IMG/VR virus record: IMGVR_UViG_3300029288_000056
Span: 224,001-288,000 of that record
Reading direction: 5' to 3' (one strand)
DNA from: a virus
Lineage: Duplodnaviria; Caudoviricetes
Length of the DNA: 64,000 nt
Shown here: positions 7,886 to 53,027 of the stretch, in pieces
Layout: each line of letters begins with the position of its first letter
Position numbering within the stretch: position 1 is the first letter of the stretch
Notes under the pieces: generated by a model
Told to the model about the DNA's origin: nothing
Databases searched by the model: none
The model's input: the letters and a program-made list of their open reading frames with translations, nothing else
Made by a program: the position numbers and the translations under genes

Positions 7886-8974
7886 TTCTACTCCTCTGTC
7901 ATTTCATCAATACGCTTTTTGAATTCCTTTTTCAAACCGAGCTCCGGCATAGTAAGCCATTTTTTAAGCATCTCAACGTCGACTAAAAAGAATGTCTTGA
8001 GCTTGTAATCACATGAGATAAAGGCTGCTTGTGGAAATTCCATTTTCACCATATCTTCGAGCTTATTGCCATCTTTGTCCAATAGACCACTTTCTGTTTC
8101 TGAAAAAATAGGCACCTCGAGGTACTCTATGTTCTCAAACATGTCCATTGGCATGTCAACCATCTCAAATGTTCTTGCTCCAATATCCGGCATAATAAGG
8201 GGAAGTTTCTTATTCATTATTTATCACCTCACCATCGTTAACTTTCATAATCTCGTCTTCTCTAAAGACACCATCAATACAAACAACTTCGTCAATAATA
8301 AAATCATGTATTGCGCAAAATCTTAGGGCGCCTTCTTTAGAATCAAAAGCACCCAATAGACTCCCAGTATAATAATCAGGACCACACTTTACAAGCCATA
8401 GCCATTTTTCATCGTTAAAATTTTCGTCTACTTCATCTATATCAACGGTAGTTCTACAACGATACTGCCCGTCGTCACGATGATACTCGTTTGTTTGTAC
8501 AATACCAACCTTAACGGCGCTTACATTTATTAAGGTCTTAAGAACTTGCTTTTGTTCTAAGTCCACTTTACTCCTCATTAGGGAAATGATTCTTAAACGC
8601 TTCAAGATACGTGTTGATCTCTAAATACAGTAAATCCCCGTAGCCGCGCTTACTCAAATCTGCCCATTTCTCAAGCACTTCTTTGGGCATTGCCACCCTA
8701 TTTTCATCGATAAAATCTATTAAAACAGAGTAAACGGATCCCTCTGTTAAATCGTTTTCCTTATCCATTTTGTTTTTCCTTTTGTTTATCCATAAACTCT
8801 TCTCTCATCTTAATATATACTAAACAATTCTTAAACTTCGGATTAATGCAATTACTTGGTGATGCGCCTTGACACCCCATGGCTAACAAGATAACTTCGC
8901 CTTCTGAATAATGTTCACAATTGATCTTATCACACTTGATTGATCCCATAACGAACTCTGGTATAATCATAATG

Positions 8975-9060
8975 AGCGGGCGGCGGGATTCGAACCCGCA
9001 ATAAGACTTTATGTCTTGCTGGGTTGGAGGCCCAGTACCATACCATTAGGTGACGCCCGC
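8975..9060 (-). tRNA. tRNA-Gly(TCC) with long variable arm, no encoded CCA
   Basis: GCGGGCG/CGCCCGC acceptor, U73, CTGGG-CCTCCAA-CCCAG anticodon arm, AAGAC-ATAAA-GTCTT extra arm, GCGGG-TTCGAAT-CCCGC T arm. Confidence 0.88.
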
Positions 9061-14970: not shown

Positions 14971-14980
14971 GCAAAAAAAA

Positions 14981-15065
14981 TAGAGAACAGGTTGAGGTGA
15001 GATATTGGGTTTCCCGGATTTTTGGTGGAAAATTTTATCAATGTAATCCCACAAGCATTTCTCTA
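14981..15065 (-). ncRNA. Y-RNA-family RNA, short form (85 nt), followed by 8 U
   Basis: TAGAGAAATGCTTGTGGGATTACAT...ATCTCACCTCAACCTGTTCTCTA; same terminal motif as the YrlA-type copies. Confidence 0.8.
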
Positions 15066-15338
15066 ATTTAAATCAAGTAAAGCTGGATTTGTATATCTAA
15101 ACTTCAGTCTACTGACCACGGACTCCACTTCACTAATGGCGCCAGAGTTTTCAGCGTTATAACCCTTACCATAAAGCTCCGCCAAAATCCTCTCCACACA
15201 ATCGATGGCTTTCTTAAGCGGTTTCCAACCCCAGTTCTCGTAAACTCCCGTCATTGCGGAATTTGCTACTCCGCGCGCTATGATCATCCACTCGTCGTAA
15301 GTGAACTCCATAGACCATTTTTCATTGAATGTTCTCAT
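15063..15338 (-). CDS. Hypothetical protein inside the Ro60/Y-RNA locus
   Basis: 91 aa ORF; its TAG stop is the first triplet of the downstream Y RNA. Confidence 0.75.
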   Translation of the reverse strand: MRTFNEKWSMEFTYDEWMIIARGVANSAMTGVYENWGWKPLKKAIDCVERILAELYGKGYNAENSGAISEVESVVSRLKFRYTNPALLDLN

Positions 15339-15844: not shown

Positions 15845-15967
15845 TACCAGAACAGAATCGGCGAGATTTGCACCTCATTTCTGAGGTTGCCGGTTATTAG
15901 TCGGCCGCTTTTGCAGGGTATTCCCCTGCTGCAATTGTAATGTAATCCCTAACCAGCATTTCTGGTA
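15845..15967 (-). ncRNA. Y-RNA-family RNA with a three-hairpin, non-tRNA internal domain (123 nt)
   Basis: TACCAGAAATGCTGGTTAGGGATTACAT...ATCTCGCCGATTCTGTTCTGGTA; hairpins GCAGGG/CCCTGC, GCCG/CGGC, ACCTCA-GAAA-TGAGGT. Confidence 0.8.
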
Positions 15968-15972
15968 AAACT

Positions 15973-16107
15973 TTTCGGGACAGAGTTAGTGAGTCGTATT
16001 TACGCGCTCCACCAGTTGAGCTATCTCGGCATAATGAGCCGAGAGTGGGATTCGAACCCACAACCACGTGCTCCATAGGCAATGTATACCCACAAGCATT
16101 CCCGAAA
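15973..16107 (-). ncRNA. yrlA: YrlA-type Y RNA with circularly permuted tRNA-like domain (135 nt)
   Basis: Terminal stem TTTCGGGA/TCCCGAAA; order is T arm (GTGGG-TTCGAAT-CCCAC), loop-closed acceptor (TCTCGGC/GCCGAGA), D arm (TAGCTCAACTGGTGGAGC); adjacent to the Ro60 gene. Confidence 0.92.
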
Positions 16108-16169: not shown

Positions 16170-17732
16170 TTACAAATCTATACTCTCTATAACCTCAACG
16201 AACTGATCCACATCGTTTCCGTATTTCATGAACATACTTATCACGTTATATACGGAATCGCTGAACCCGCCCACGTTGAGAATTTCTTTACTGTTATGCG
16301 CTTGAGTGGACGTATTTGGCGCCAAGTCTATACAAACTAACTTTGCACCCGGATTGTGTTGCTTAAACTTCTTCCACTCATCCATCGTTGAAGTTCCTCG
16401 GTAGCTGTCCTGACTATCCACCCATGATTCGTTGTCAGATAGATAGATGCAAAGATCGCCCTTCTTGCCGTTTTGATTCAAAAAGGCCAATGCTGTGGAG
16501 CAACTTGTGCCTCCACCGCTACTACCTCCGATTTCTCTTGCGTTTGTAGCAATAGAATCTAGAGGGTTGATCCCACTCATAAGTTGTGCTCTGGTCGCAA
16601 ACTGTATAACTTCTGCAGTTGGATTCTTGCGCAAAATAGAAGCCGCAAACAGACCCGCCACGTTACAACAACTGACTTTAGAAGTAGCACTTCCTCTTTG
16701 GCCGGTCACGGGAGAACTCATAGACCCAGAGACATCAACGAACAGCCAAACCTTTCCCTCAATCTCAGGTATATTCTCCGCCGAATAGTCAAGAGCCTTT
16801 TGTAGCGCTATGGTTATCTCGCGTGGCATTTCGCTTTGCGCGAACATGTAAGCCGTAAACAGTTGATAAGGAAATGTTCTGGACTTTTTCACAAGTTCAG
16901 CATCCATCAACTGACTAACAACGTATTGCACCATTTCTTTGTCTTCAAAGACTTTGTGACGTAGAAGCGTATTGAGATTGATTCTCAATTGGTTCCAAGT
17001 CATAGTCTTTGCGAGCGCCTTCCAATGTGCATCGGTAAGGCTCAGGGACGTTAGCATCTCAAATGGAACTTCTGGAAACGCGACAGACTCCCCGTTAGTA
17101 AGAGCTTTCTTAAACAACTCGTACGCTTTTAGGTCGTCTGGTAGTAAAACGTCGTTAAACTCGCGGCCCAACACGTAGTTGATCGTATTCTCGCGTTCTT
17201 TGTTTACGGGTTTTGGGTGAACCATCTTTATAATATCAGACATTGATGGATCACTTCCTGTGACGAAAGCCACGTAAGAATCGGTCCAACTGTTGATCAA
17301 GCCGGCAAGTTGTTTCTTGAGTGAAGTACCAAAGGATTGGCGACCGAATTTATTCGAACGAATTGCTTGTACGAAGTTTCGTATCATCTTTCCGTTGGTT
17401 ACGACCTTTGGAAACGCCTTTTTAAATTGAGCCAAAGCCTCTGGAGTCTTGCAACCCGCTAGATAAGCCAATAGCGCAACCGGCATGTCCTTCATCAAAC
17501 CACGAGTCGCAGAATAGACCGCGGTCTTGGCGATAAAGGTAGGATCAACTTGAGGTAGATACTTGTAGAGATGGGCGAGTTGGTCTCCCCCACTTGCGTA
17601 GTAGGTGCCGTTAAAGCAGCCGGTTACAGCTAACTGCGCGATGGCGTGCTTTGCACTCATTGAATACGCAATTCCACCTGCGTCATTTACTGCGTCTGCA
17701 GGTTTGACACCGTTAAACACGTTCTTGTTCAT
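16170..17732 (-). CDS. rsr: Ro60 (TROVE + vWA) RNA-binding protein
   Basis: NDAGGIAY, AQLAVTGCFNGTYY, MKDMP, IIKMVHPKP, RINLNTLLRH, FPYQLFTAY, MIDAS DVSGSMS, SDNESW, VGGFSD. Confidence 0.96.
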   Translation of the reverse strand: MNKNVFNGVKPADAVNDAGGIAYSMSAKHAIAQLAVTGCFNGTYYASGGDQLAHLYKYLPQVDPTFIAKTAVYSATRGLMKDMPVALLAYLAGCKTPEALAQFKKAFPKVVTNGKMIRNFVQAIRSNKFGRQSFGTSLKKQLAGLINSWTDSYVAFVTGSDPSMSDIIKMVHPKPVNKERENTINYVLGREFNDVLLPDDLKAYELFKKALTNGESVAFPEVPFEMLTSLSLTDAHWKALAKTMTWNQLRINLNTLLRHKVFEDKEMVQYVVSQLMDAELVKKSRTFPYQLFTAYMFAQSEMPREITIALQKALDYSAENIPEIEGKVWLFVDVSGSMSSPVTGQRGSATSKVSCCNVAGLFAASILRKNPTAEVIQFATRAQLMSGINPLDSIATNAREIGGSSGGGTSCSTALAFLNQNGKKGDLCIYLSDNESWVDSQDSYRGTSTMDEWKKFKQHNPGAKLVCIDLAPNTSTQAHNSKEILNVGGFSDSVYNVISMFMKYGNDVDQFVEVIESIDL

Positions 17733-17771
17733 TTTTATTCTCCTTTTTAGGAAACAGTTATGAAAAGATTA

Positions 17772-17846
17772 AGATGGGACAGGGGTTTGCTGAGATACGG
17801 TTTTAATTTACAGTTTAAATGTAATCCCAAGCGAGCATTCCCATCT
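17772..17846 (-). ncRNA. Y-RNA-family RNA, minimal form (75 nt), upstream of Ro60
   Basis: AGATGGGAATGCTCGCTTGGGATTACAT...GTATCTCAGCAAACCCCTGTCCCATCT. Confidence 0.8.
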
Positions 17847-17889
17847 ACAACACTAACACGGATTATGCAAAATAATCCCCTATTATTTT

Positions 17890-22165: not shown

Positions 22166-23377
22166 TTAACTAACTCTGTTAAATAGGATGTTTTTATCCA
22201 TCAAAGTATTATTACTTTGTTGACGCTTCACAGGGGAGATTGAGACCTCTAGCCCTCCACGTCCAGCACCGGCTAACCGTCCGGCATTTAATATATTAAT
22301 CGCTGCGTTTGTGTCCCTATCATGTTTTGCTCCGCAAACACAAGTCCATTCTCTATCTTTTAGGGTAAGATCGTTGTTGATATATCCACAAACAGAGCAG
22401 ATCTTACTAGATGGGAACCAACGGTCTATAAAAATAATAGAACCGTTTTTCCATCGTTCTTTATATCCTATCTGTCTTACGAATTCACGCATAGATGCAT
22501 CCGCAACCGCACCGGCAAGATGATGATTTTGCATCATGCCACTTATATTAAGATCCTCCAGATATACAATATTATATTTCTTACAAATTCTTGACGTGGC
22601 CTGATTAATTGTGTCATTCCTCTTATCTGCAATGCGTTTGTAAATACGTTGGACTCTTAGTTTAGCTTTTTGTCTGCGTTTACTCCCTACCTCTTTACGA
22701 GCTAATTGTCGTTGCGCTTGTGCTAATAATTTTTCCAAATGTTGTCCGTGTTTAGGATTCTCAAACTTACACCCATCACTTGTGGTCGCAAGCGTTTTTA
22801 CACCTAAATCTATACCCACTTCCCTTACTTGGTTATCGCAAGGGTTCTGGGTTTCAACTTCAACCGTAAACGAAGCGTACCACTTTCCCGCTTGTTCACT
22901 AATCGCAACTGTACCAACTAATTTTCCCTGAAAACGTAAAGACTGACACATACGTACCCACCCGAGTTTTGGAATACGCACTTTGTTATTATCAAGAGCT
23001 ATCGTGCCGGTCTCTAAGTGAAAAACCAGCCTATCTTGTTTTCTACTCTTAAACCGCGGAAACCCCGGTTTACCAGATTTATTCTTAACTCTTCTAAAAA
23101 AGTTAGTATAAGCAAAATCAAGTTGCTGTAACGCTAAACGGGGAATACTTTTAGGCACACCAGATAACCAAGTGTGAGTTGAATATTTCATTATCGTTAT
23201 TTTTGTAGCTAAAATATACGCGCCCGATGTCTTATTTGTGTTTTTGTATTCAGTCTGTTTACTTTCTAATCCAAAATTATAGGCAAAACGGTGGGCGCCC
23301 GCATACTTAACAAACTCAACTTTTTGAGTATCATTCGGTAGTAGTTGTATCTTATGAGATTTATGTATCAGTATCAT
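22166..23377 (-). mobile_element. tnpB: TnpB RNA-guided endonuclease, no adjacent tnpA
   Basis: N-terminal HTH, PGFPRFKS, RuvC GIDLG / LEDLNI / HDRDTNAAINI, SSKICSVCG Zn finger. Confidence 0.95.
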
Positions 23378-41479: not shown

Positions 41480-41571
41480 CAGGACCGCTAGGACTCGAAC
41501 CTAGAGCCTCCAAGGGATTACTCGTCAGTAATCCGTTTAAGGAGCGGGCTTACCATTAGCCCTACAGCCCT
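41480..41571 (-). ncRNA. tRNA-like RNA with anticodon loop replaced by an extended hairpin
   Basis: AGGGCTG/CGGTCCT acceptor, GGGCT-AATGGTA-AGCCC D arm, CTCC...GGAG enclosing GGATTACT-GACG-AGTAATCC, CTAGG-TTCGAGT-CCTAG T arm. Confidence 0.8.
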
Positions 41572-41637
41572 TTGCCTTTGAAGGATTCGAACCTTCTAGT
41601 TATATGCCGACAATGCATATAACCGCCATTAAGGCAA
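41572..41637 (-). ncRNA. D-armless tRNA-like RNA
   Basis: TTGCCTT/AAGGCAA acceptor, 9-bp GTTATATGC/GCATATAAC arm with 7-nt loop, GAAGG-TTCGAAT-CCTTC T arm. Confidence 0.72.
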
Positions 41638-41778
41638 CCGTTTTAATTTTACTAGGGAGATCCGGGTTGTTTACCGGGAGCTCAATTTCTGGTGATATGG
41701 CTTCAACGCCTCTTAGCTTTCGCTCCGCTCCACACATATCTCAGTTGCACCTCCGCAGTCCGTACTGCACGCTCATAC

Positions 41779-41807
41779 ATACTATCATAAGTCGCTAGAA
41801 AAGTCAA
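41779..41807 (-). promoter_or_regulatory. Repeated promoter (TTGACT-17-TAGTAT)
   Basis: Motif match; spacer nearly identical to the copy at 14942. Confidence 0.8.
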
Positions 41808-45710: not shown

Positions 45711-46832
45711 TCAAGCTACGCTCATCCCAACGGATCGCGTTAACGCTTGAAGGGCCTGCCCGGCCCTAAGAATATTTAACGCCGCATTTGCGTCTCGGTT
45801 CAGCACTAGTCCGCAGTTCGGGCACTCAAAAGTTCGCGTGGAAAGCGAAATCTGATACCGCGTTCCACAGACCGAACATGTCTGACTAGTGTTGTGGGGG
45901 CGCACTTTGATCAGTTGCCTACCAGCCTCTTCCGCTTTGTAGCCAAGAAAACCAAAGAATTGTCCCCAAGATGCATCCGCAATGCTTTTTGATAAATGTT
46001 TGTTTCGTACCATGTTTTTGATCTGCAAATCCTCGACGTAAATCCGTTGATACCGCTCAACATATCGCCGTGAGGTCTTGTGTGTGAAGTCTTTGCGCTG
46101 ATTTGCTATGCGTTCGTGTGTCTTCGCAACTTGAACTCGCGCCTTGTTTCTGCGTTTACTGCCTTTCTTCCGCCGCGAGAGGGTCCGTTGCTGCTTTTTC
46201 AGCCTCCGTGCCGACTGCTTTAGGAATCGGTTGTTTTCAACAACATTCCCATCACTATCATAAATGAAGTTTTCGATCCCAACATCTAAGCCAACTTCAC
46301 GGTCGGTGGCTGGGTACTGTCTGGGTGGAACGTTGTCGCACGAAAAAGTAACGTACCATTTTCCAGCCGCACTCTTTCTAACGGTTACGGTCTTGATCTC
46401 GCCCAAAATCGGTCGGTGAAGTTTTAACTTAAAGGTTCCCAAACGGCTTATGATGAGTTTGTTGCCCTCTAGTTTCCAGCCGGATTGAGTTAAAGTGAGA
46501 CTATCGTATCTTCCGTAACCTTTAAAACGTGGAAAACCAGCACCTCCGATTTTGATACGCCTGAAAAAGCTTTGGTAGGCCAAGTCCACTCTACCAACTA
46601 CATCTTGTAAAGTTTGAGCTGGGATCACCGTAAATTCTGAAAATACTTTTTTAAACAAGGGAAGCTCGTTCTGCTGGTCAAAACGACTTAAAGACTTACG
46701 CACACTTTTCCAGACCTTATTTCGTTGTTCGAGACAGAGATTATACAACTGACGGCAAAGTTCTAACCATCCCAATGCTTTTTCATTGGTTTCTTTAGTG
46801 CAAATCGCATAGTATTTATAAGTAAGTCTCAT
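45711..46832 (-). mobile_element. tnpB: TnpB RNA-guided endonuclease, no adjacent tnpA
   Basis: CRQLYNLCLEQR, AGFPRFKG, RuvC GLDVG / VEDLQI / LNRDANAALNIL, TSQTCSVCG. Confidence 0.95.
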
Positions 46833-51260: not shown

Positions 51261-51262
51261 AT

Positions 51263-51345
51263 TGGGCCGGGGAGGATTTGAACCTCCGTACCCGGAAGGG
51301 ATCAGATTTACAGTCTGACGCCTTTAACCACTCGGCCACCGACCC
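51263..51345 (-). tRNA. tRNA-Tyr(GTA)
   Basis: GGGTCGG/CCGGCCC acceptor, TCAGA-CTGTAAA-TCTGA, long variable arm, GGAGG-TTCAAAT-CCTCC. Confidence 0.95.
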
Positions 51346-51360
51346 ATTTTAAAACAATAC

Positions 51361-51487
51361 TAGAGAACAGAAATTGTGAGTACGTTTATGCGTTCTATCT
51401 GTTGAACTACCGCCCTTGTGGGGCGGGGGAGATTCGCACTCCCAGCTCATCCTTGAAATGGAATGTAAACCCACGAGCATTTCTCTA
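51361..51487 (-). ncRNA. yrlA: Second YrlA-type Y RNA (127 nt), ~34 kb from the Ro60 gene
   Basis: TAGAGAAATGCTCGTGGGTTTACAT...GTACTCACAATTTCTGTTCTCTA; T arm GGGAG-TGCGAAT-CTCCC, closed acceptor CCGCCC/GGGCGG, D arm TAGTTCAACAGATAGAAC. Confidence 0.88.
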
Positions 51488-51523
51488 ATACTTACCCTCG
51501 GCCACCTAGGACTACCTAGGATT

Positions 51524-51677
51524 TTAGAATATCTGGCAAGGATTCAAACCTTGCATGTGGCCTCGTTTTATGGAATTACGCTTTGCTTGTGCACTCATAA
51601 AGCGGTCCCTCCAATGGATACTAGTTCCACATCATCCTCGTCGATCGCGTCTACTCTTTCCGCCACAGACATTCTAA
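51524..51677 (-). ncRNA. tRNA-shell RNA 1 (~154 nt)
   Basis: TTAGAATGTCTG/CAGATATTCTAA, TGGCGGAAAGAGTAGACGC D arm, ~90-nt insert, GCAAGG-TTTGAAT-CCTTGC. Confidence 0.82.
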
Positions 51678-51910
51678 GAACAGGATAGGATTTACACCTA
51701 TCATGGTTTATCCTTTTTCCGATATTTCCGCACTGGCTTTATAACGAAGCTCTCACCTCTTGCCGTGCCACTTTAGGGACTTTATTGGTTGTCATCCAAC
51801 TGCACCCTCGACGGTCTCTTGCCTTGGTTTAACTGTCGCCAAAGCTCAGGACATAACCTTCAACCACTGATGTAAGTTTTCTAGCGTCTACATATTCCGC
51901 CACTGCTCTT
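51676..51910 (-). ncRNA. tRNA-shell RNA 2 (~235 nt)
   Basis: AAGAGCAG/CTGTTCTT, TGGCGGAATATGTAGACGC D arm, ~180-nt insert, GATAGG-TGTAAAT-CCTATC. Confidence 0.82.
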
Positions 51911-51915
51911 AATTG

Positions 51916-52000
51916 TTGGGTAGATTGAGACCACGCGGATTGCTAAGCCGCAACTTATCTCAATTTTTAGGCTTAGCATGCCTTATGGCAATCTGCCCAA
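51916..52000 (-). ncRNA. Structured RNA, probable pseudoknot (85 nt)
   Basis: TTGGGCAGA/TCTACCCAA outer stem, TGCC/GGCA hairpin, TGCTAAGCC/GGCTTAGCA stem whose loop TTGAGAT complements downstream GTCTCAA. Confidence 0.6.
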
Positions 52001-52013
52001 TAAGTTCTATAAT

Positions 52014-52058
52014 CGCGTGGTACTGACCAGTCAGACGGGCTTTACCCATAACCACGCG
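52014..52058 (-). ncRNA. Small three-way-junction RNA element (45 nt)
   Basis: CGCGTGGT/ACCACGCG enclosing ATGGG/CCCGT and CTGA/TCAG hairpins. Confidence 0.55.
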
Positions 52059-52064
52059 TTTATC

Positions 52065-52218
52065 TCTGTTTGGTAAGGATTCAAACCTTACACGCTACCT
52101 CTCCAAGTACACGCATTGTCGGAAACCATTGGAGCAACTTTGGGGTTGACTTGATAGCGCTCTTAGTGTAGCCTCAACCATCTACACCAGCTGCATTACT
52201 CTTTCTGCCACAAACAGA
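52065..52218 (-). ncRNA. tRNA-shell RNA 3 (~154 nt)
   Basis: TCTGTTTG/CAAACAGA, TGGCAGAAAGAGTAATGC D arm, ~100-nt multibranch insert, GTAAGG-TTTGAAT-CCTTAC. Confidence 0.82.
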
Positions 52219-52231
52219 TGTCAAAGAACTG
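52219..52231 (-). promoter_or_regulatory. boxA-like antitermination site
   Basis: CAGTTCTTTGACA directly after the promoter and before the first RNA. Confidence 0.65.
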
Positions 52232-52236
52232 ATTAT

Positions 52237-52265
52237 ATCCTAACACACTTTCCGTAGAAAGTCAA
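52237..52265 (-). promoter_or_regulatory. Repeated promoter (TTGACT-17-TAGGAT) driving the RNA cluster
   Basis: Motif match. Confidence 0.82.
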
Positions 52266-52275
52266 GCGAAAAATT

Positions 52276-52602
52276 GAGAGAAGGAAGGAATCGAACCTTC
52301 GTTTAGCTTTTATTGATTAGCAGGGTTACAATTTCAATTGGCTAATCAACTTCCAATGAGGACTAGCTGTTTCCCCTTTATTGTTCGTCTAATATGTGGC
52401 ATCTCCCGAAGAAAGAACTGTTTCGTGAATCTCTGCAGAGATCCCTATCGTCCCGCTGTCCACACTTTCAGATCTTGTAGACCCCATGCAATCCGTCCGT
52501 GATTCCAGATCGAAGGAGCGACCTTCCTTGCCAGATCGATTTTCCCCCTTAGGTGCCCCAACCCACATTAGATATAGCGGCTTCCATTTCGCCACATCTC
52601 TC
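52276..52602 (-). ncRNA. tRNA-shell RNA 4 (327 nt)
   Basis: GAGAGATG/CTTCTCTC acceptor, TGGCGAAATGGAAGCCGC D arm, GAAGG-TTCGATT-CCTTC T arm; internal helices TCTAATGTGG/CCACATATTAGA and GTTGATTAGC/GCTAATCAAT. Confidence 0.8.
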
Positions 52603-52659
52603 TTATAACGGTGACATAACTTTATACATGATCAGTCTTTATACTCTATGCCACCGTTT

Positions 52660-52672
52660 ATTTCAAAGAACG
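52660..52672 (-). promoter_or_regulatory. boxA-like antitermination site
   Basis: CGTTCTTTGAAAT directly after the promoter. Confidence 0.65.
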
Positions 52673-52681
52673 ATTTTATAC

Positions 52682-52710
52682 ATCGTAACATACTTCTGTG
52701 GAAAAGTCAA
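52682..52710 (-). promoter_or_regulatory. Repeated promoter (TTGACT-17-TACGAT) driving the 327-nt RNA
   Basis: Motif match. Confidence 0.82.
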
Positions 52711-52723
52711 GCGTTATTTCATG

Positions 52724-52804
52724 TGGTCGGGAGGGGCTTCGAACCCTCATTTCATTTCCCCTATGATATTGGAAATGCGTTCTGCCAATTGAACTACCCT
52801 CTCG
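52724..52804 (-). ncRNA. Aberrant tRNA-like RNA ending in CCA
   Basis: Normal D arm GTTC-AATTGGCA-GAAC, 7-bp CATTTCC/GGAAATG arm with 11-nt loop, GGG-TTCGAAG-CCC; 3' acceptor strand ~3 nt short. Confidence 0.6.
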
Positions 52805-53027
52805 TGTTTTAAATCTCTAAATCTTCGTCATCTAGATCGTCTTGGATCTTAAAGCCCAAACTGTTCAGGTATTCACACAATGCGTTAAGCTTAACGGAAC
52901 ACTGCCCACATTCGGAGATACCTTTGCAATATGTTGCGCGGAACTTTCTACAACCGAGAATTACTGATTCTAATTCTTCAGCAGAAAGCACATCTTCATG
53001 AATCGCCATTTTTATCCTCCTACTAAT

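What the first reader, a model, noticed from the sequence alone, without database searches (positions are those of the whole stretch)
52276..52602. 327-nt tRNA-capped RNA with its own promoter, boxA and leader hairpin
Seen: tRNA-like ends enclose ~275 nt with long-range helices (TCTAATGTGG/CCACATATTAGA; a 10-bp GTTGATTAGC/GCTAATCAAT), a TCGATCTGG direct repeat and the palindrome ATCTCTGCAGAGAT. It lies between two promoters, so it may be its own transcript. It is tmRNA-sized but has a D stem and no G3:U70 alanine determinant. Inference: candidate new large ncRNA class.
Basis: partly seen in the sequence, partly recalled or inferred. Interest (0 to 1): 0.82.

Follow-up and report, generated by a model that had tools for sequence, protein, structure and literature searches.

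The report
Giant tRNA-framed RNA in jumbo phage
A 327-base RNA gene in an uncultured 297-kb phage has ends that fold like a tRNA but carries about 260 extra bases where the anticodon and variable region should be; it matches no known RNA family and no relative was found, so its function is open.

Summary
On the minus strand, 52602-52276 has a canonical T arm, a D arm with GG, and pairing 5'/3' ends that enclose about 260 nt. It sits between two members of a ~60-copy phage promoter family. A boxA-like motif and a 12-bp leader hairpin lie downstream of its promoter.

It is not a tmRNA, group I intron, RNase P RNA, 6S, OLE, GOLLD, ROOL or Y RNA by Rfam 15. It is not a tRNA or tmRNA by ARAGORN. 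Deleting the insert does not give a canonical tRNA. The 68-codon frame is what chance gives.

The element is not isolated. The ORF-free 1.46 kb at 51346-52810 is an RNA island. It holds three smaller RNAs with a similar non-canonical tRNA frame (13-bp acceptor plus T stack), a YrlA-type Y RNA and tRNA-Tyr. The phage also encodes Ro60 flanked by four more Y RNAs, RtcB, three RNA ligases and a CCA-adding enzyme. A model of the phage's own Y RNAs finds no Ro60-binding module in the element.

Best reading (0.45): a non-decoding RNA whose tRNA-like shell directs end processing and stability for a cargo of unknown function.

No homologue exists in any collection searched, so a "class" is unproven. 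This scan has noted tRNA-shaped phage RNAs on other DNA before.

The parts
52682..52710 (-). Promoter P_F (TTGACT, 17 nt, TG-TACGAT), a member of the phage's ~60-copy GCTTGACTTT promoter family
52660..52672 (-). boxA-like motif CGUUCUUUGAAAU, a few nt downstream of the predicted start. A second copy (AGUUCUUUGACAU, 52218-52230) follows promoter P_B.
   Evidence: The likeness to E. coli rrn boxA (UGCUCUUUAACAA) rests on my own knowledge.
52607..52658 (-). Leader hairpin, ending 4 nt before the RNA's 5' end. A look-alike hairpin (AUAAACGCGUGGU...ACCACGCGAUUAU) lies in unit E of the island.
   Evidence: (I1)
52276..52602 (-). The 327-nt tRNA-framed RNA (F)
52595..52602 (-). Acceptor 5' strand GAGAGAUG. 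It pairs with 52276-52283 (CUUCUCUC): 7 pairs plus one U.U.
52579..52593 (-). D arm GGC / GAAAUGGAA / GCC, with the A14, G18, G19 and A21 equivalents
52563..52572 (-). 5' strand of the long-range helix. It can instead form a local anticodon-like hairpin (loop AUCUAAU), predicted about 4 kcal/mol less stable.
52388..52399 (-). 3' strand of the long-range helix (CCACAUAUUAGA)
52429..52442 (.). Perfect 14-nt palindrome; hairpin in all predicted folds
52505..52539 (-). Two copies of UCGAUCUGG flanking the hairpin GAAGG-UCGCU-CCUUC
   Evidence: (D5)
52312..52350 (-). Hairpin of 9 Watson-Crick pairs plus one G.U with a 19-nt loop, in the variable-arm position
   Evidence: (I2)
52284..52300 (-). Canonical T arm GAAGG-UUCGAUU-CCUUC. 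It is followed by one extra C and then the 7-nt acceptor strand.
52237..52265 (-). Next promoter P_B, 10 nt after the 3' end of F. It starts the B, E, C, D, Y2, tRNA-Tyr transcript.
51358..51487 (-). Context: YrlA-type Y RNA (Y2) in the same RNA island
51528..52217 (-). Context: tRNA-framed units B (52065-52217), C (51676-51909) and D (51528-51672), and the strongly folded unit E (51910-52064)

Best explanation
F is a stand-alone gene for a non-decoding RNA of about 327 nt, built as a tRNA-like shell around a cargo.

Shown:
- It has its own strong phage promoter, a boxA-like motif and a leader hairpin.
- Its two ends form an acceptor-like stem, a D arm and a canonical T arm, with nearly all elbow nucleotides kept.
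- There is one extra nucleotide between the T stem and the acceptor strand. The acceptor plus T stack is therefore 13 bp, not the 12 bp of elongator tRNAs.
- About 260 nt occupy the place of the anticodon and variable region.

Inferred:
- The shell lets RNase P cut the 5' leader.
- It lets 3' trimming and the phage's CCA-adding enzyme finish the 3' end.
- It protects both ends. The cargo is thereby delivered as a stable RNA that acts in trans, for example as a protein-binding platform or decoy.
- The boxA-like element keeps RNA polymerase elongating through this untranslated operon.

What the cargo binds is unknown.
For: - Promoter family membership and the position between two promoters.
- An ORF-free 1.46-kb stretch on the coding strand packed with RNA genes.
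- The unconstrained fold recovers the acceptor, D and T helices.
- F shares its frame layout with units B, C, D and G: 7 nt, 2 nt, a 3-bp D stem, and an extra C after the 5-bp T stem.
- A pattern built on the B/C/D/G frame finds at least 118 IMG/VR loci with covarying acceptor stems and unrelated cargos. tRNA-framed cargo RNAs are therefore a real, widespread phage theme.
- T4 species 1 RNA (rnaC) in the T4 tRNA cluster also ends in a canonical T arm closed by 5'/3' pairing.
- The phage encodes a CCA-adding enzyme, RtcB, RNA ligases and Ro60.
- There is no hit to any Rfam family and no tRNA or tmRNA call.
Against: - No homologue of F was found anywhere, so there is no covariation or conservation evidence.
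- The cargo is not unusually stable, with z-scores of -1.5 and -1.2. Unit E scores -5.4 and T4 rnaC -4.6.
- F differs from B, C and D in detail: GU instead of UG connector, a C.C instead of a sixth T-stem pair, a U.U in the acceptor, and no -1:73 pair.
- There are no expression data.
Confidence: 0.45

Rival explanations
1. Relic: a tRNA-like gene disrupted by insertion of foreign DNA into its anticodon loop. It is still transcribed but has no function of its own.
For: - The 5-nt direct repeat CUAAU flanks the insert (nt 32-36 and 283-287 of the RNA), like a target-site duplication (read).
- The cargo is thermodynamically unremarkable.
- The element is unique.
- The island contains other tRNA fragments, for example a partial tRNA-Tyr 5' part before Y2.
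Against: - P_F transcribes F before the next promoter, so its main product would be junk.
- There are no convincing terminal inverted repeats. Only GGGUU / AACCC match.
- No other copy exists in the phage. One 21-nt and one 20-nt word from the insert, each scanned in one collection, had no exact match in GTDB genomes or IMG/VR.
- Both CUAAU copies sit in 10-bp helices whose complementarity extends beyond the repeat. That argues for selected pairing.
- The frame was already non-canonical (13-bp stack).
Confidence: 0.2
2. Intron-containing pre-tRNA. The roughly 250-nt insert is removed either by self-splicing (a very divergent group I intron) or by a protein pathway ending in RtcB ligation, giving a small tRNA.
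For: - The insert lies in the anticodon-loop region.
- With a 5' splice site after U31 and a 3' splice site after G282, the U(-1) and terminal-G rules are met. A 3-bp UAU/GUG pairing like P1 is possible (read).
- The phage encodes RtcB and three RNA ligases.
Against: - No group I or group II hit, or any ribozyme hit, appears even at E <= 10 on a 341-nt search.
- Of 1080 deletion variants only 7 give any ARAGORN tRNA. All have unnatural anticodons (AAU, AUG) and weak stems.
- The product would have an A.A mismatch in an all-A-U anticodon stem, pyrimidine 37 and a 13-bp acceptor plus T stack.
- There is no splicing endonuclease.
- The phage already has tRNA-Ile(GAU), and only Ala is missing.
- Sibling units carry inserts of 65-155 nt, too small to be ribozymes.
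Confidence: 0.12
3. Ro60-bound Y RNA: F is a tRNA-ordered Y RNA that docks on the phage Ro60 through its long helix.
For: - F lies about 800 nt from a YrlA-type RNA.
- The phage has Ro60 with four adjacent Y RNAs.
- The 5' strand of the long helix (AAUG-UGGGUU) resembles the conserved AAUGCUYGUGGGU of the phage's Y RNAs with 4 nt missing.
- Earlier notes of this scan proposed such embedded handles in other phages. These are leads only.
Against: - A covariance model of the phage's own Y RNAs, run with filters off, finds five Y RNAs by their Ro-binding stem but nothing in F, B, C, D or E at E <= 10.
- Rfam YrlA gives no hit on F.
- The conserved internal loop (AAUGCU / CUGU) is absent.
- F lies 35 kb from Ro60.
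Confidence: 0.07
4. tmRNA-like RNA, or a small protein gene (the 68-codon frame at 52389-52595).
For: - The size is tmRNA-like.
- The T loop GGUUCGAUUCC is the tmRNA-type sequence.
- One frame is open for 70 codons.
Against: - ARAGORN and all Rfam tmRNA models are negative.
- There is no G3:U70, and a D stem is present.
- An open frame at least this long occurs in 703 of 3000 dinucleotide shuffles.
- The frame starts at GUG inside the D arm without a spaced Shine-Dalgarno sequence.
- There is no PHROG hit.
Confidence: 0.03

Closest known systems
Phage T4 species 1 RNA (rnaC), a stable RNA of unknown function in the T4 tRNA cluster
   Same: - Encoded among phage tRNA genes.
- Canonical T arm next to the 3' end, and 5'/3' ends that pair.
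- No anticodon arm, with long extra arms in between.
- Function unknown. Its processing with the tRNAs is from my own knowledge.
   Different: - rnaC is 139 nt, has no D arm and is very stable (z -4.6).
- F is 327 nt, keeps a D arm and has its own promoter.
- The two were not compared by sequence.
tRNA-framed long RNAs of this phage (units B, C, D, G) and the IMG/VR family with the frame GGCGGAAnnnGUAGACG ... 6-bp T stem
   Same: - Acceptor, 2-nt connector, 3-bp D stem, cargo, T arm, one extra nucleotide, then the acceptor strand. This gives a 13-bp acceptor plus T stack.
- Cargos are unrelated to each other.
   Different: - F keeps the canonical GG D loop and UUCGAUU T loop, and has a 5-bp T stem with C.C.
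- Its cargo is 2 to 4 times larger.
- A scan for members with long cargo found only tandem short ones.
YrlA-type bacterial and phage Y RNAs with Ro60 (Rfam RF02553; Chen et al. 2014, PMC4201824)
   Same: - A tRNA mimic fused to a non-tRNA module.
- Present in the same phage and the same island.
   Different: - YrlA is circularly permuted relative to a tRNA and carries a conserved Ro-binding stem.
- F has tRNA strand order and lacks that stem by model search.
tmRNA
   Same: - Size.
- tRNA-like ends enclosing a large internal domain closed by a long helix.
   Different: - F has a D stem, no G3:U70 and discriminator A after a U.U-containing stem.
- No detector or model recognises it as a tmRNA.
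Bacterial tRNA genes with group I introns (tRNA-Leu of cyanobacteria, tRNA-Ile of Azoarcus; own knowledge; review PMC3984707)
   Same: - An insert of 200-250 nt in the anticodon loop of a tRNA-shaped gene.
   Different: - No group I core is detectable.
- The exons do not make a canonical tRNA.

Membership tests
tRNA (RF00005 / ARAGORN) | Recognised cloverleaf with a 5-bp anticodon stem and 7-nt loop | tested here: not met
   There is no ARAGORN call with or without introns up to 600 nt. There is no RF00005 hit at E <= 10. Only a weak 4-bp local hairpin could serve as an anticodon arm.
tRNA (RF00005 / ARAGORN) | 12-bp acceptor plus T stack (7+5), U8 and N9 connectors | tested here: not met
   One extra C lies between the T stem and the acceptor strand. 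ARAGORN's own drawing of the deletion variants gives an 8-bp acceptor.
tRNA (RF00005 / ARAGORN) | T arm and D loop elbow nucleotides (G18, G19, U54, U55, C56, A58, G53-C61) | tested here: met
   Read directly from the sequence.
tRNA gene with group I intron | Match to a group I covariance model | tested here: not met
   No hit at E <= 10 in searches of 341 nt and 1101 nt.
tRNA gene with group I intron | Exons join to a canonical tRNA | tested here: not met
   Only 7 of 1080 junction combinations give any ARAGORN tRNA, all aberrant.
tRNA gene with group I intron | U at -1 paired with G in P1, and a terminal G | tested here: inconclusive
   One junction choice (after U31 and after G282) satisfies both, but it was chosen post hoc.
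tmRNA | Detection by ARAGORN or Rfam tmRNA models; G3:U70; no D stem; tag reading frame | tested here: not met
   sequence read. Only the 17-nt T arm matches.
YrlA / Y RNA (RF02553) | Match to the family model | tested here: not met
   RF02553 hits Y1 (52.8 bits) and Y2 (43.6 bits) but not F.
YrlA / Y RNA (RF02553) | Ro60-binding stem as conserved in this phage's own Y RNAs (helix, AAUGCU, GUGGGWUUACAU ... CUCAC ... CUGU, helix) | tested here: not met
   Model R1 with filters off finds 5 Y RNAs and nothing in 52276-52602 at E <= 10.
YrlA / Y RNA (RF02553) | Physical binding to Ro60 | not testable with these tools
   Needs pull-down or gel shift.
tRNA-framed cargo RNAs (units B, C, D, G; IMG/VR family) | Frame layout with one extra nucleotide after the 5-bp T stem, a 2-nt connector and a 3-bp D stem | tested here: met
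   Anchor alignment of the ends.
tRNA-framed cargo RNAs (units B, C, D, G; IMG/VR family) | 6-bp T stem, altered T loop (UKYRAAU) and D loop without canonical GG, GGCGGAA D arm | tested here: not met
   F has C.C at the sixth position, a canonical UUCGAUU loop and GG, and a GGCGAAA D arm. It does not match the family pattern.
boxA antitermination site | boxA-like sequence shortly after the promoter of an untranslated operon | tested here: inconclusive
   GTTCTTTGA follows both island promoters and no other promoter of the roughly 60. NusB/NusE binding was not tested, and the consensus comparison is from memory.

The most novel reading that the evidence does not exclude
F is the first seen member of a class of large (>300 nt) phage RNAs. 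In this reading a tRNA shell acts as a processing and stability cassette for a roughly 260-nt functional cargo. The cargo could be a decoy for a host RNA-binding factor; it carries a third GUUCUUU boxA-like word. It could also be a ribozyme, or an insert removed by a new protein-dependent (RtcB-sealed) bacterial tRNA splicing pathway.
Probability: 0.25. Interest if true: 0.75.

Novelty: new variant of a known kind. Interest (0 to 1): 0.5.

Why it matters
Phage tRNA clusters have held unexplained stable RNAs since T4's species 1 and 2 RNAs. Ro60/Y RNA systems show that tRNA mimicry is used to recruit or distract tRNA-handling proteins.

This phage concentrates many such RNAs:
- at least five Y RNAs;
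- at least five tRNA-framed cargo RNAs;
- several tRNAs with stretched arms;
- a full RNA repair kit.

F is the extreme case, with a near-canonical tRNA core carrying 260 nt. If it is stable and functional, it would show that natural systems use the tRNA scaffold trick on large RNAs. It would also give a defined cargo to test for partners.

If it is a relic, it is ordinary.

Tried and rejected
- **Known RNA families.** Rfam at gathering threshold found only tRNAs in the window. Rfam at E <= 10 found nothing in F.
- **tRNA and tmRNA detectors.** ARAGORN with introns up to 600 nt and with tmRNA detection was negative for F.
- **Copies within the genome.** BLAST with 9-nt words found none.
- **GenBank phages.** Megablast and blastn gave no match.
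- **Exact and two-anchor patterns.**
  - IMG/VR. The single hit was a chance match inside a coding region.
  - GTDB genomes.
  - JGI metagenomes.
- **Search against the fetched loci.** nhmmer and blastn of F against 149 fetched IMG/VR loci matched only the T arm.
- **Relatives through proteins.**
  - A flanking 158-aa ORF and DnaB gave no close relatives in IMG/VR.
  - DnaB and Ro60 against GenBank phages gave at most 43% identity.
  - A flanking 151-aa ORF and the portal protein found only themselves among 5.8 billion clusters.
- **Long-cargo members of the sibling frame.** The scan found only tandem arrays of short members.
- **Ro60 next to the IMG/VR sibling loci.** tblastn gave one weak hit in 149 loci, an insensitive test.
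- **Stop-codon recoding.** This would give an amber-suppressor reading of the local CUA loop. It is rejected because all three stops are used normally.
- **Coding potential of the 68-codon frame.** Rejected.
- **Mobile-element reading.** Only a 5-nt repeat and a 5-nt inverted match support it.
- **Hammerhead and group II domain V motifs.** Checked by eye; absent.

Full report
**Where it lies**

The window is bases 224001-288000 of a single 297,328-base IMG/VR virus record, estimated 94% complete. Genes run almost entirely on the minus strand. The record carries about 36 tRNA genes covering every amino acid except alanine.

The window encodes:
- DnaB, primase and an SNF2 helicase;
- two TnpB proteins;
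- a CCA-adding enzyme;
- a Ro60/TROVE protein at 16170-17732.

The Ro60 protein is 43% identical to that of Myxococcus phage Mx1. Elsewhere the genome encodes RtcB, whose match is split by an intein-sized insert. It also encodes three PF09414 RNA ligases, but no tRNA splicing endonuclease.

**The observation**

Read on the minus strand from 52602 to 52276, the element has these features.
- It begins GAGAGAUG-U-GGC-GAAAUGGAA-GCC.
- It ends CGAAGG-UUCGAUU-CCUUC-C-UUCUCUC, followed by A.
- The T arm is canonical, and the D loop keeps the GG and flanking A residues.
- The ends pair as GAGAGA(U)G with C(U)UCUCUC.
- The named internal features are all there:
  - the 10-pair helix with a 2-nt bulge;
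  - the 9-10-bp hairpin;
  - the UCGAUCUGG repeat;
  - the 14-nt palindrome.

The unconstrained minimum-energy fold of the 328 nt recovers the acceptor, D and T helices without help.

The flanking promoters are real members of a family. About 60 copies of GCTTGACTTT with a TG-extended -10 element are spread over the genome, nearly all on the coding strand. The simple scan finds both of them.

Only these two promoters are followed by GTTCTTTGA, which resembles rrn boxA (consensus from my own knowledge). The leader hairpin has 12-nt arms that are 92% complementary. F is therefore its own transcription unit, and its 3' end lies 10 nt before the -35 box of the next promoter.

**What it is not**

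- **Known RNA families.** Rfam 15 gives no hit to any family at E <= 10 in a 341-nt or a 1101-nt search, apart from the bare T arm. That excludes, at Infernal's sensitivity:
  - tmRNA, RNase P RNA and 6S;
  - OLE, GOLLD, ROOL and HEARO;
  - group I and II introns and the small self-cleaving ribozymes.
- **tRNA or tmRNA.** ARAGORN finds neither, even when introns up to 600 nt are allowed.
- **An interrupted tRNA.** I removed every insert from 24-47 to 255-299 (1080 variants). Only 7 give any ARAGORN tRNA, with anticodons AAU, AUG or CUA in the summary run. The full drawings of the three I inspected all read AAU. These models have weak stems and an 8-bp acceptor.
- **A protein gene.** The 68-codon frame is not unusual, since 703 of 3000 dinucleotide shuffles have one at least as long. 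It has no PHROG match.
- **An amber suppressor.** The genome uses all three stop codons normally. The local hairpin with loop AUCUAAU is therefore unlikely to be a suppressor anticodon arm.

**The context changes the reading**

The minus strand from 51346 to 52810 has no ORF of 50 codons or more. It is filled with RNA modules. After promoter P_B come the following units.

| Unit | Coordinates | Length | Notes |
|---|---|---|---|
| B | 52065-52217 | 153 nt | tRNA frame |
| E | 51910-52064 | 155 nt | z -5.4, two very stable hairpin domains |
| C | 51676-51909 | 234 nt | tRNA frame |
| D | 51528-51672 | 145 nt | tRNA frame |
| Y2 | 51358-51487 | 130 nt | YrlA-type Y RNA, RF02553 at 43.6 bits, E 3e-8, below the gathering score |
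| tRNA-Tyr | 51262-51346 | 85 nt | ordinary tRNA |

Units B, C and D, and a further unit G at genome 158.4-158.6 kb, share one tRNA frame:
- perfectly pairing but different acceptor stems;
- a Leu-type 3-bp D stem;
- a 6-bp T stem.

F has the same layout of 7 nt, 2 nt, a 3-bp D stem, cargo, a 5-bp T stem, one extra C and a 7-nt acceptor strand. All of them therefore have a 13-bp acceptor plus T stack rather than the 12 bp of elongator tRNAs. F differs in keeping canonical D and T loops, in having C.C instead of a sixth T-stem pair, and in a cargo two to four times larger.

A pattern built on the B/C/D/G frame finds at least 118 IMG/VR loci. These have covarying acceptor stems and unrelated cargos of about 80-110 nt. 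tRNA-framed cargo RNAs are thus a widespread phage theme.

A scan for members with cargo of about 270 nt returned only tandem arrays of short members.

**Test of the Ro60 / Y RNA idea**

Earlier notes of this scan on other phages proposed that such RNAs carry a Ro60 handle. These notes are leads only. I built a covariance model from this phage's two YrlA hits, whose closing helix covaries. I then searched the window with filters off.

The model recovers Y1 and Y2. It also finds three further Y RNAs beside the Ro60 gene, all through the shared stem (helix, AAUGCU, GUGGGWUUACAU ... CUCAC ... CUGU, helix):
- 14972-15071, E 2e-6;
- 17764-17851, E 0.002;
- 15848-15964, E 0.02.

It finds nothing in F, B, C, D or E at E <= 10. 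F has only a partial likeness (AAUG-UGGGUU) on the 5' strand of its long helix. F therefore fails the membership test for a Y RNA of this phage's type. A different mode of Ro60 binding cannot be excluded.

**No relatives**

F has no second copy in the genome and no blastn match in GenBank phages. Exact and two-anchor patterns gave no true match in IMG/VR, GTDB genomes or JGI metagenomes.

The phage itself is an orphan:
- DnaB and a flanking ORF have no close relatives in IMG/VR.
- The portal protein and another flanking ORF find only themselves among 5.8 billion protein clusters.

No covariation test of the cargo is therefore possible. The cargo's folding energy is only 1.2-1.5 sd below shuffles. 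Two conformations lie within about 4 kcal/mol of each other: the long-range helix, or a local anticodon-like hairpin followed by a giant variable region.

**Weighing**

- **For a functional RNA.** F has a dedicated strong promoter with a boxA-like word and a leader hairpin. Its L-shape nucleotides are kept, and its frame layout is shared with siblings that are themselves part of a large family. Both of its 10-bp helices extend beyond the repeated CUAAU core.
- **For a relic.**
  - The 5-nt direct repeat flanks the insert.
  - The cargo is thermodynamically unremarkable.
  - The sequence is unique.
- **For an intron.** Only the position of the insert and a post hoc U / terminal-G junction support it. 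Against it stand the lack of any ribozyme signature and the poor exon product.

I put the shell-plus-cargo RNA at 0.45, relic at 0.20, intron at 0.12, Ro60 partner at 0.07, and tmRNA-like or coding at 0.03. The remainder is unassigned.

**Closest known thing by architecture**

The nearest match is T4 species 1 RNA (rnaC). It lies in the T4 tRNA cluster, ends in a canonical T arm closed by 5'/3' pairing, and still has no known function.

**Verdict**

F is a real, unexplained RNA gene, and it is a new variant of the known theme of phage tRNA mimics. It is not yet a class.

Noticed in passing
window 14972-15071, 15848-15964, 15971-16106, 17764-17851 (all minus strand): Four Y RNA-like genes flank the Ro60 gene (16170-17732). 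One is YrlA-type with a tRNA-like domain (52.8 bits). Three are shorter and share only the Ro-binding stem, which shows compensatory changes in the closing helix.
   Followed up: partly
window 51528-52217 (minus strand): Units B, C and D are tRNA-framed RNAs of 145-234 nt. They have 6-bp T stems, altered T loops (UUUGAAU, UGUAAAU) and D loops that change in step. Unit C swaps the G18/U55 positions to U/G.
   Followed up: partly
window 51910-52064 (minus strand): Unit E has two very stable hairpin domains (z -5.4) and no tRNA frame. Its first hairpin looks like the leader hairpin of F (AUAAACG + GUGG ... CCAC + UAUA).
   Followed up: partly
IMG/VR loci L019-L136: At least 118 viral contigs carry RNAs of 130-160 nt with the frame GUGGCGGAAUAGGUAGACGC ... 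GCAAGG-UGCAAAU-CCUUGC, covarying acceptor stems and diverse cargos. Some cargos hold a second internal T arm. Only 1 of 149 loci showed a weak Ro60 match by tblastn.
   Followed up: partly
window 52724-52803 (minus strand): Unit A is a tRNA-like gene (RF00005, 26.8 bits, below threshold). It has a 7-bp anticodon stem, an 11-nt loop and a poorly pairing acceptor. Its D arm is nearly identical to that of Y2.
   Followed up: partly
window 41480-41790 (minus strand): Behind one promoter lie three RNA features. The first is a structured leader of about 150 nt. The second is a D-armless tRNA-like RNA (41571-41637) with an 8-bp anticodon-type stem. The third is ARAGORN's 'tRNA-???' (41480-41571), whose anticodon arm is stretched to about 37 nt.
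   Followed up: no
genome 158301-158574 (outside the window): A second small RNA island lies next to tRNA-Leu and tRNA-Phe. Unit G (about 145 nt) has the same frame as B and D. A 119-nt tRNA-framed RNA there contains AAAUGCU, the word conserved in the phage's Y RNAs.
   Followed up: no
window 8974-9060 and genome 134888-134975: tRNA-Gly(UCC) is 87 nt and tRNA-Thr(UGU) is 88 nt. Both carry long variable arms, which is unusual for these isoacceptors.
   Followed up: no
genome 291167-293419 (outside the window): A 750-aa ORF matches RtcB in two pieces (profile 1-50 and 46-425) separated by about 300 residues, as expected for an intein.
   Followed up: no
whole genome: About 60 near-identical promoters (A-rich tract, GCTTGACTTTT, TGT, -10 element) lie almost all on the coding strand. 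This points to host sigma-70-type transcription of most of the genome.
   Followed up: partly
window 52412-52423 (inside F): A third copy of the boxA-like word (ACAGUUCUUUC) lies inside the cargo of F. It is 83% identical over 12 nt to the leader copy.
   Followed up: no
window 22166-23377 and 45711-46832 (minus strand): There are two TnpB (OrfB_IS605 / Cas12f-like) genes in the phage. Their omega-RNA regions were not examined.
   Followed up: no
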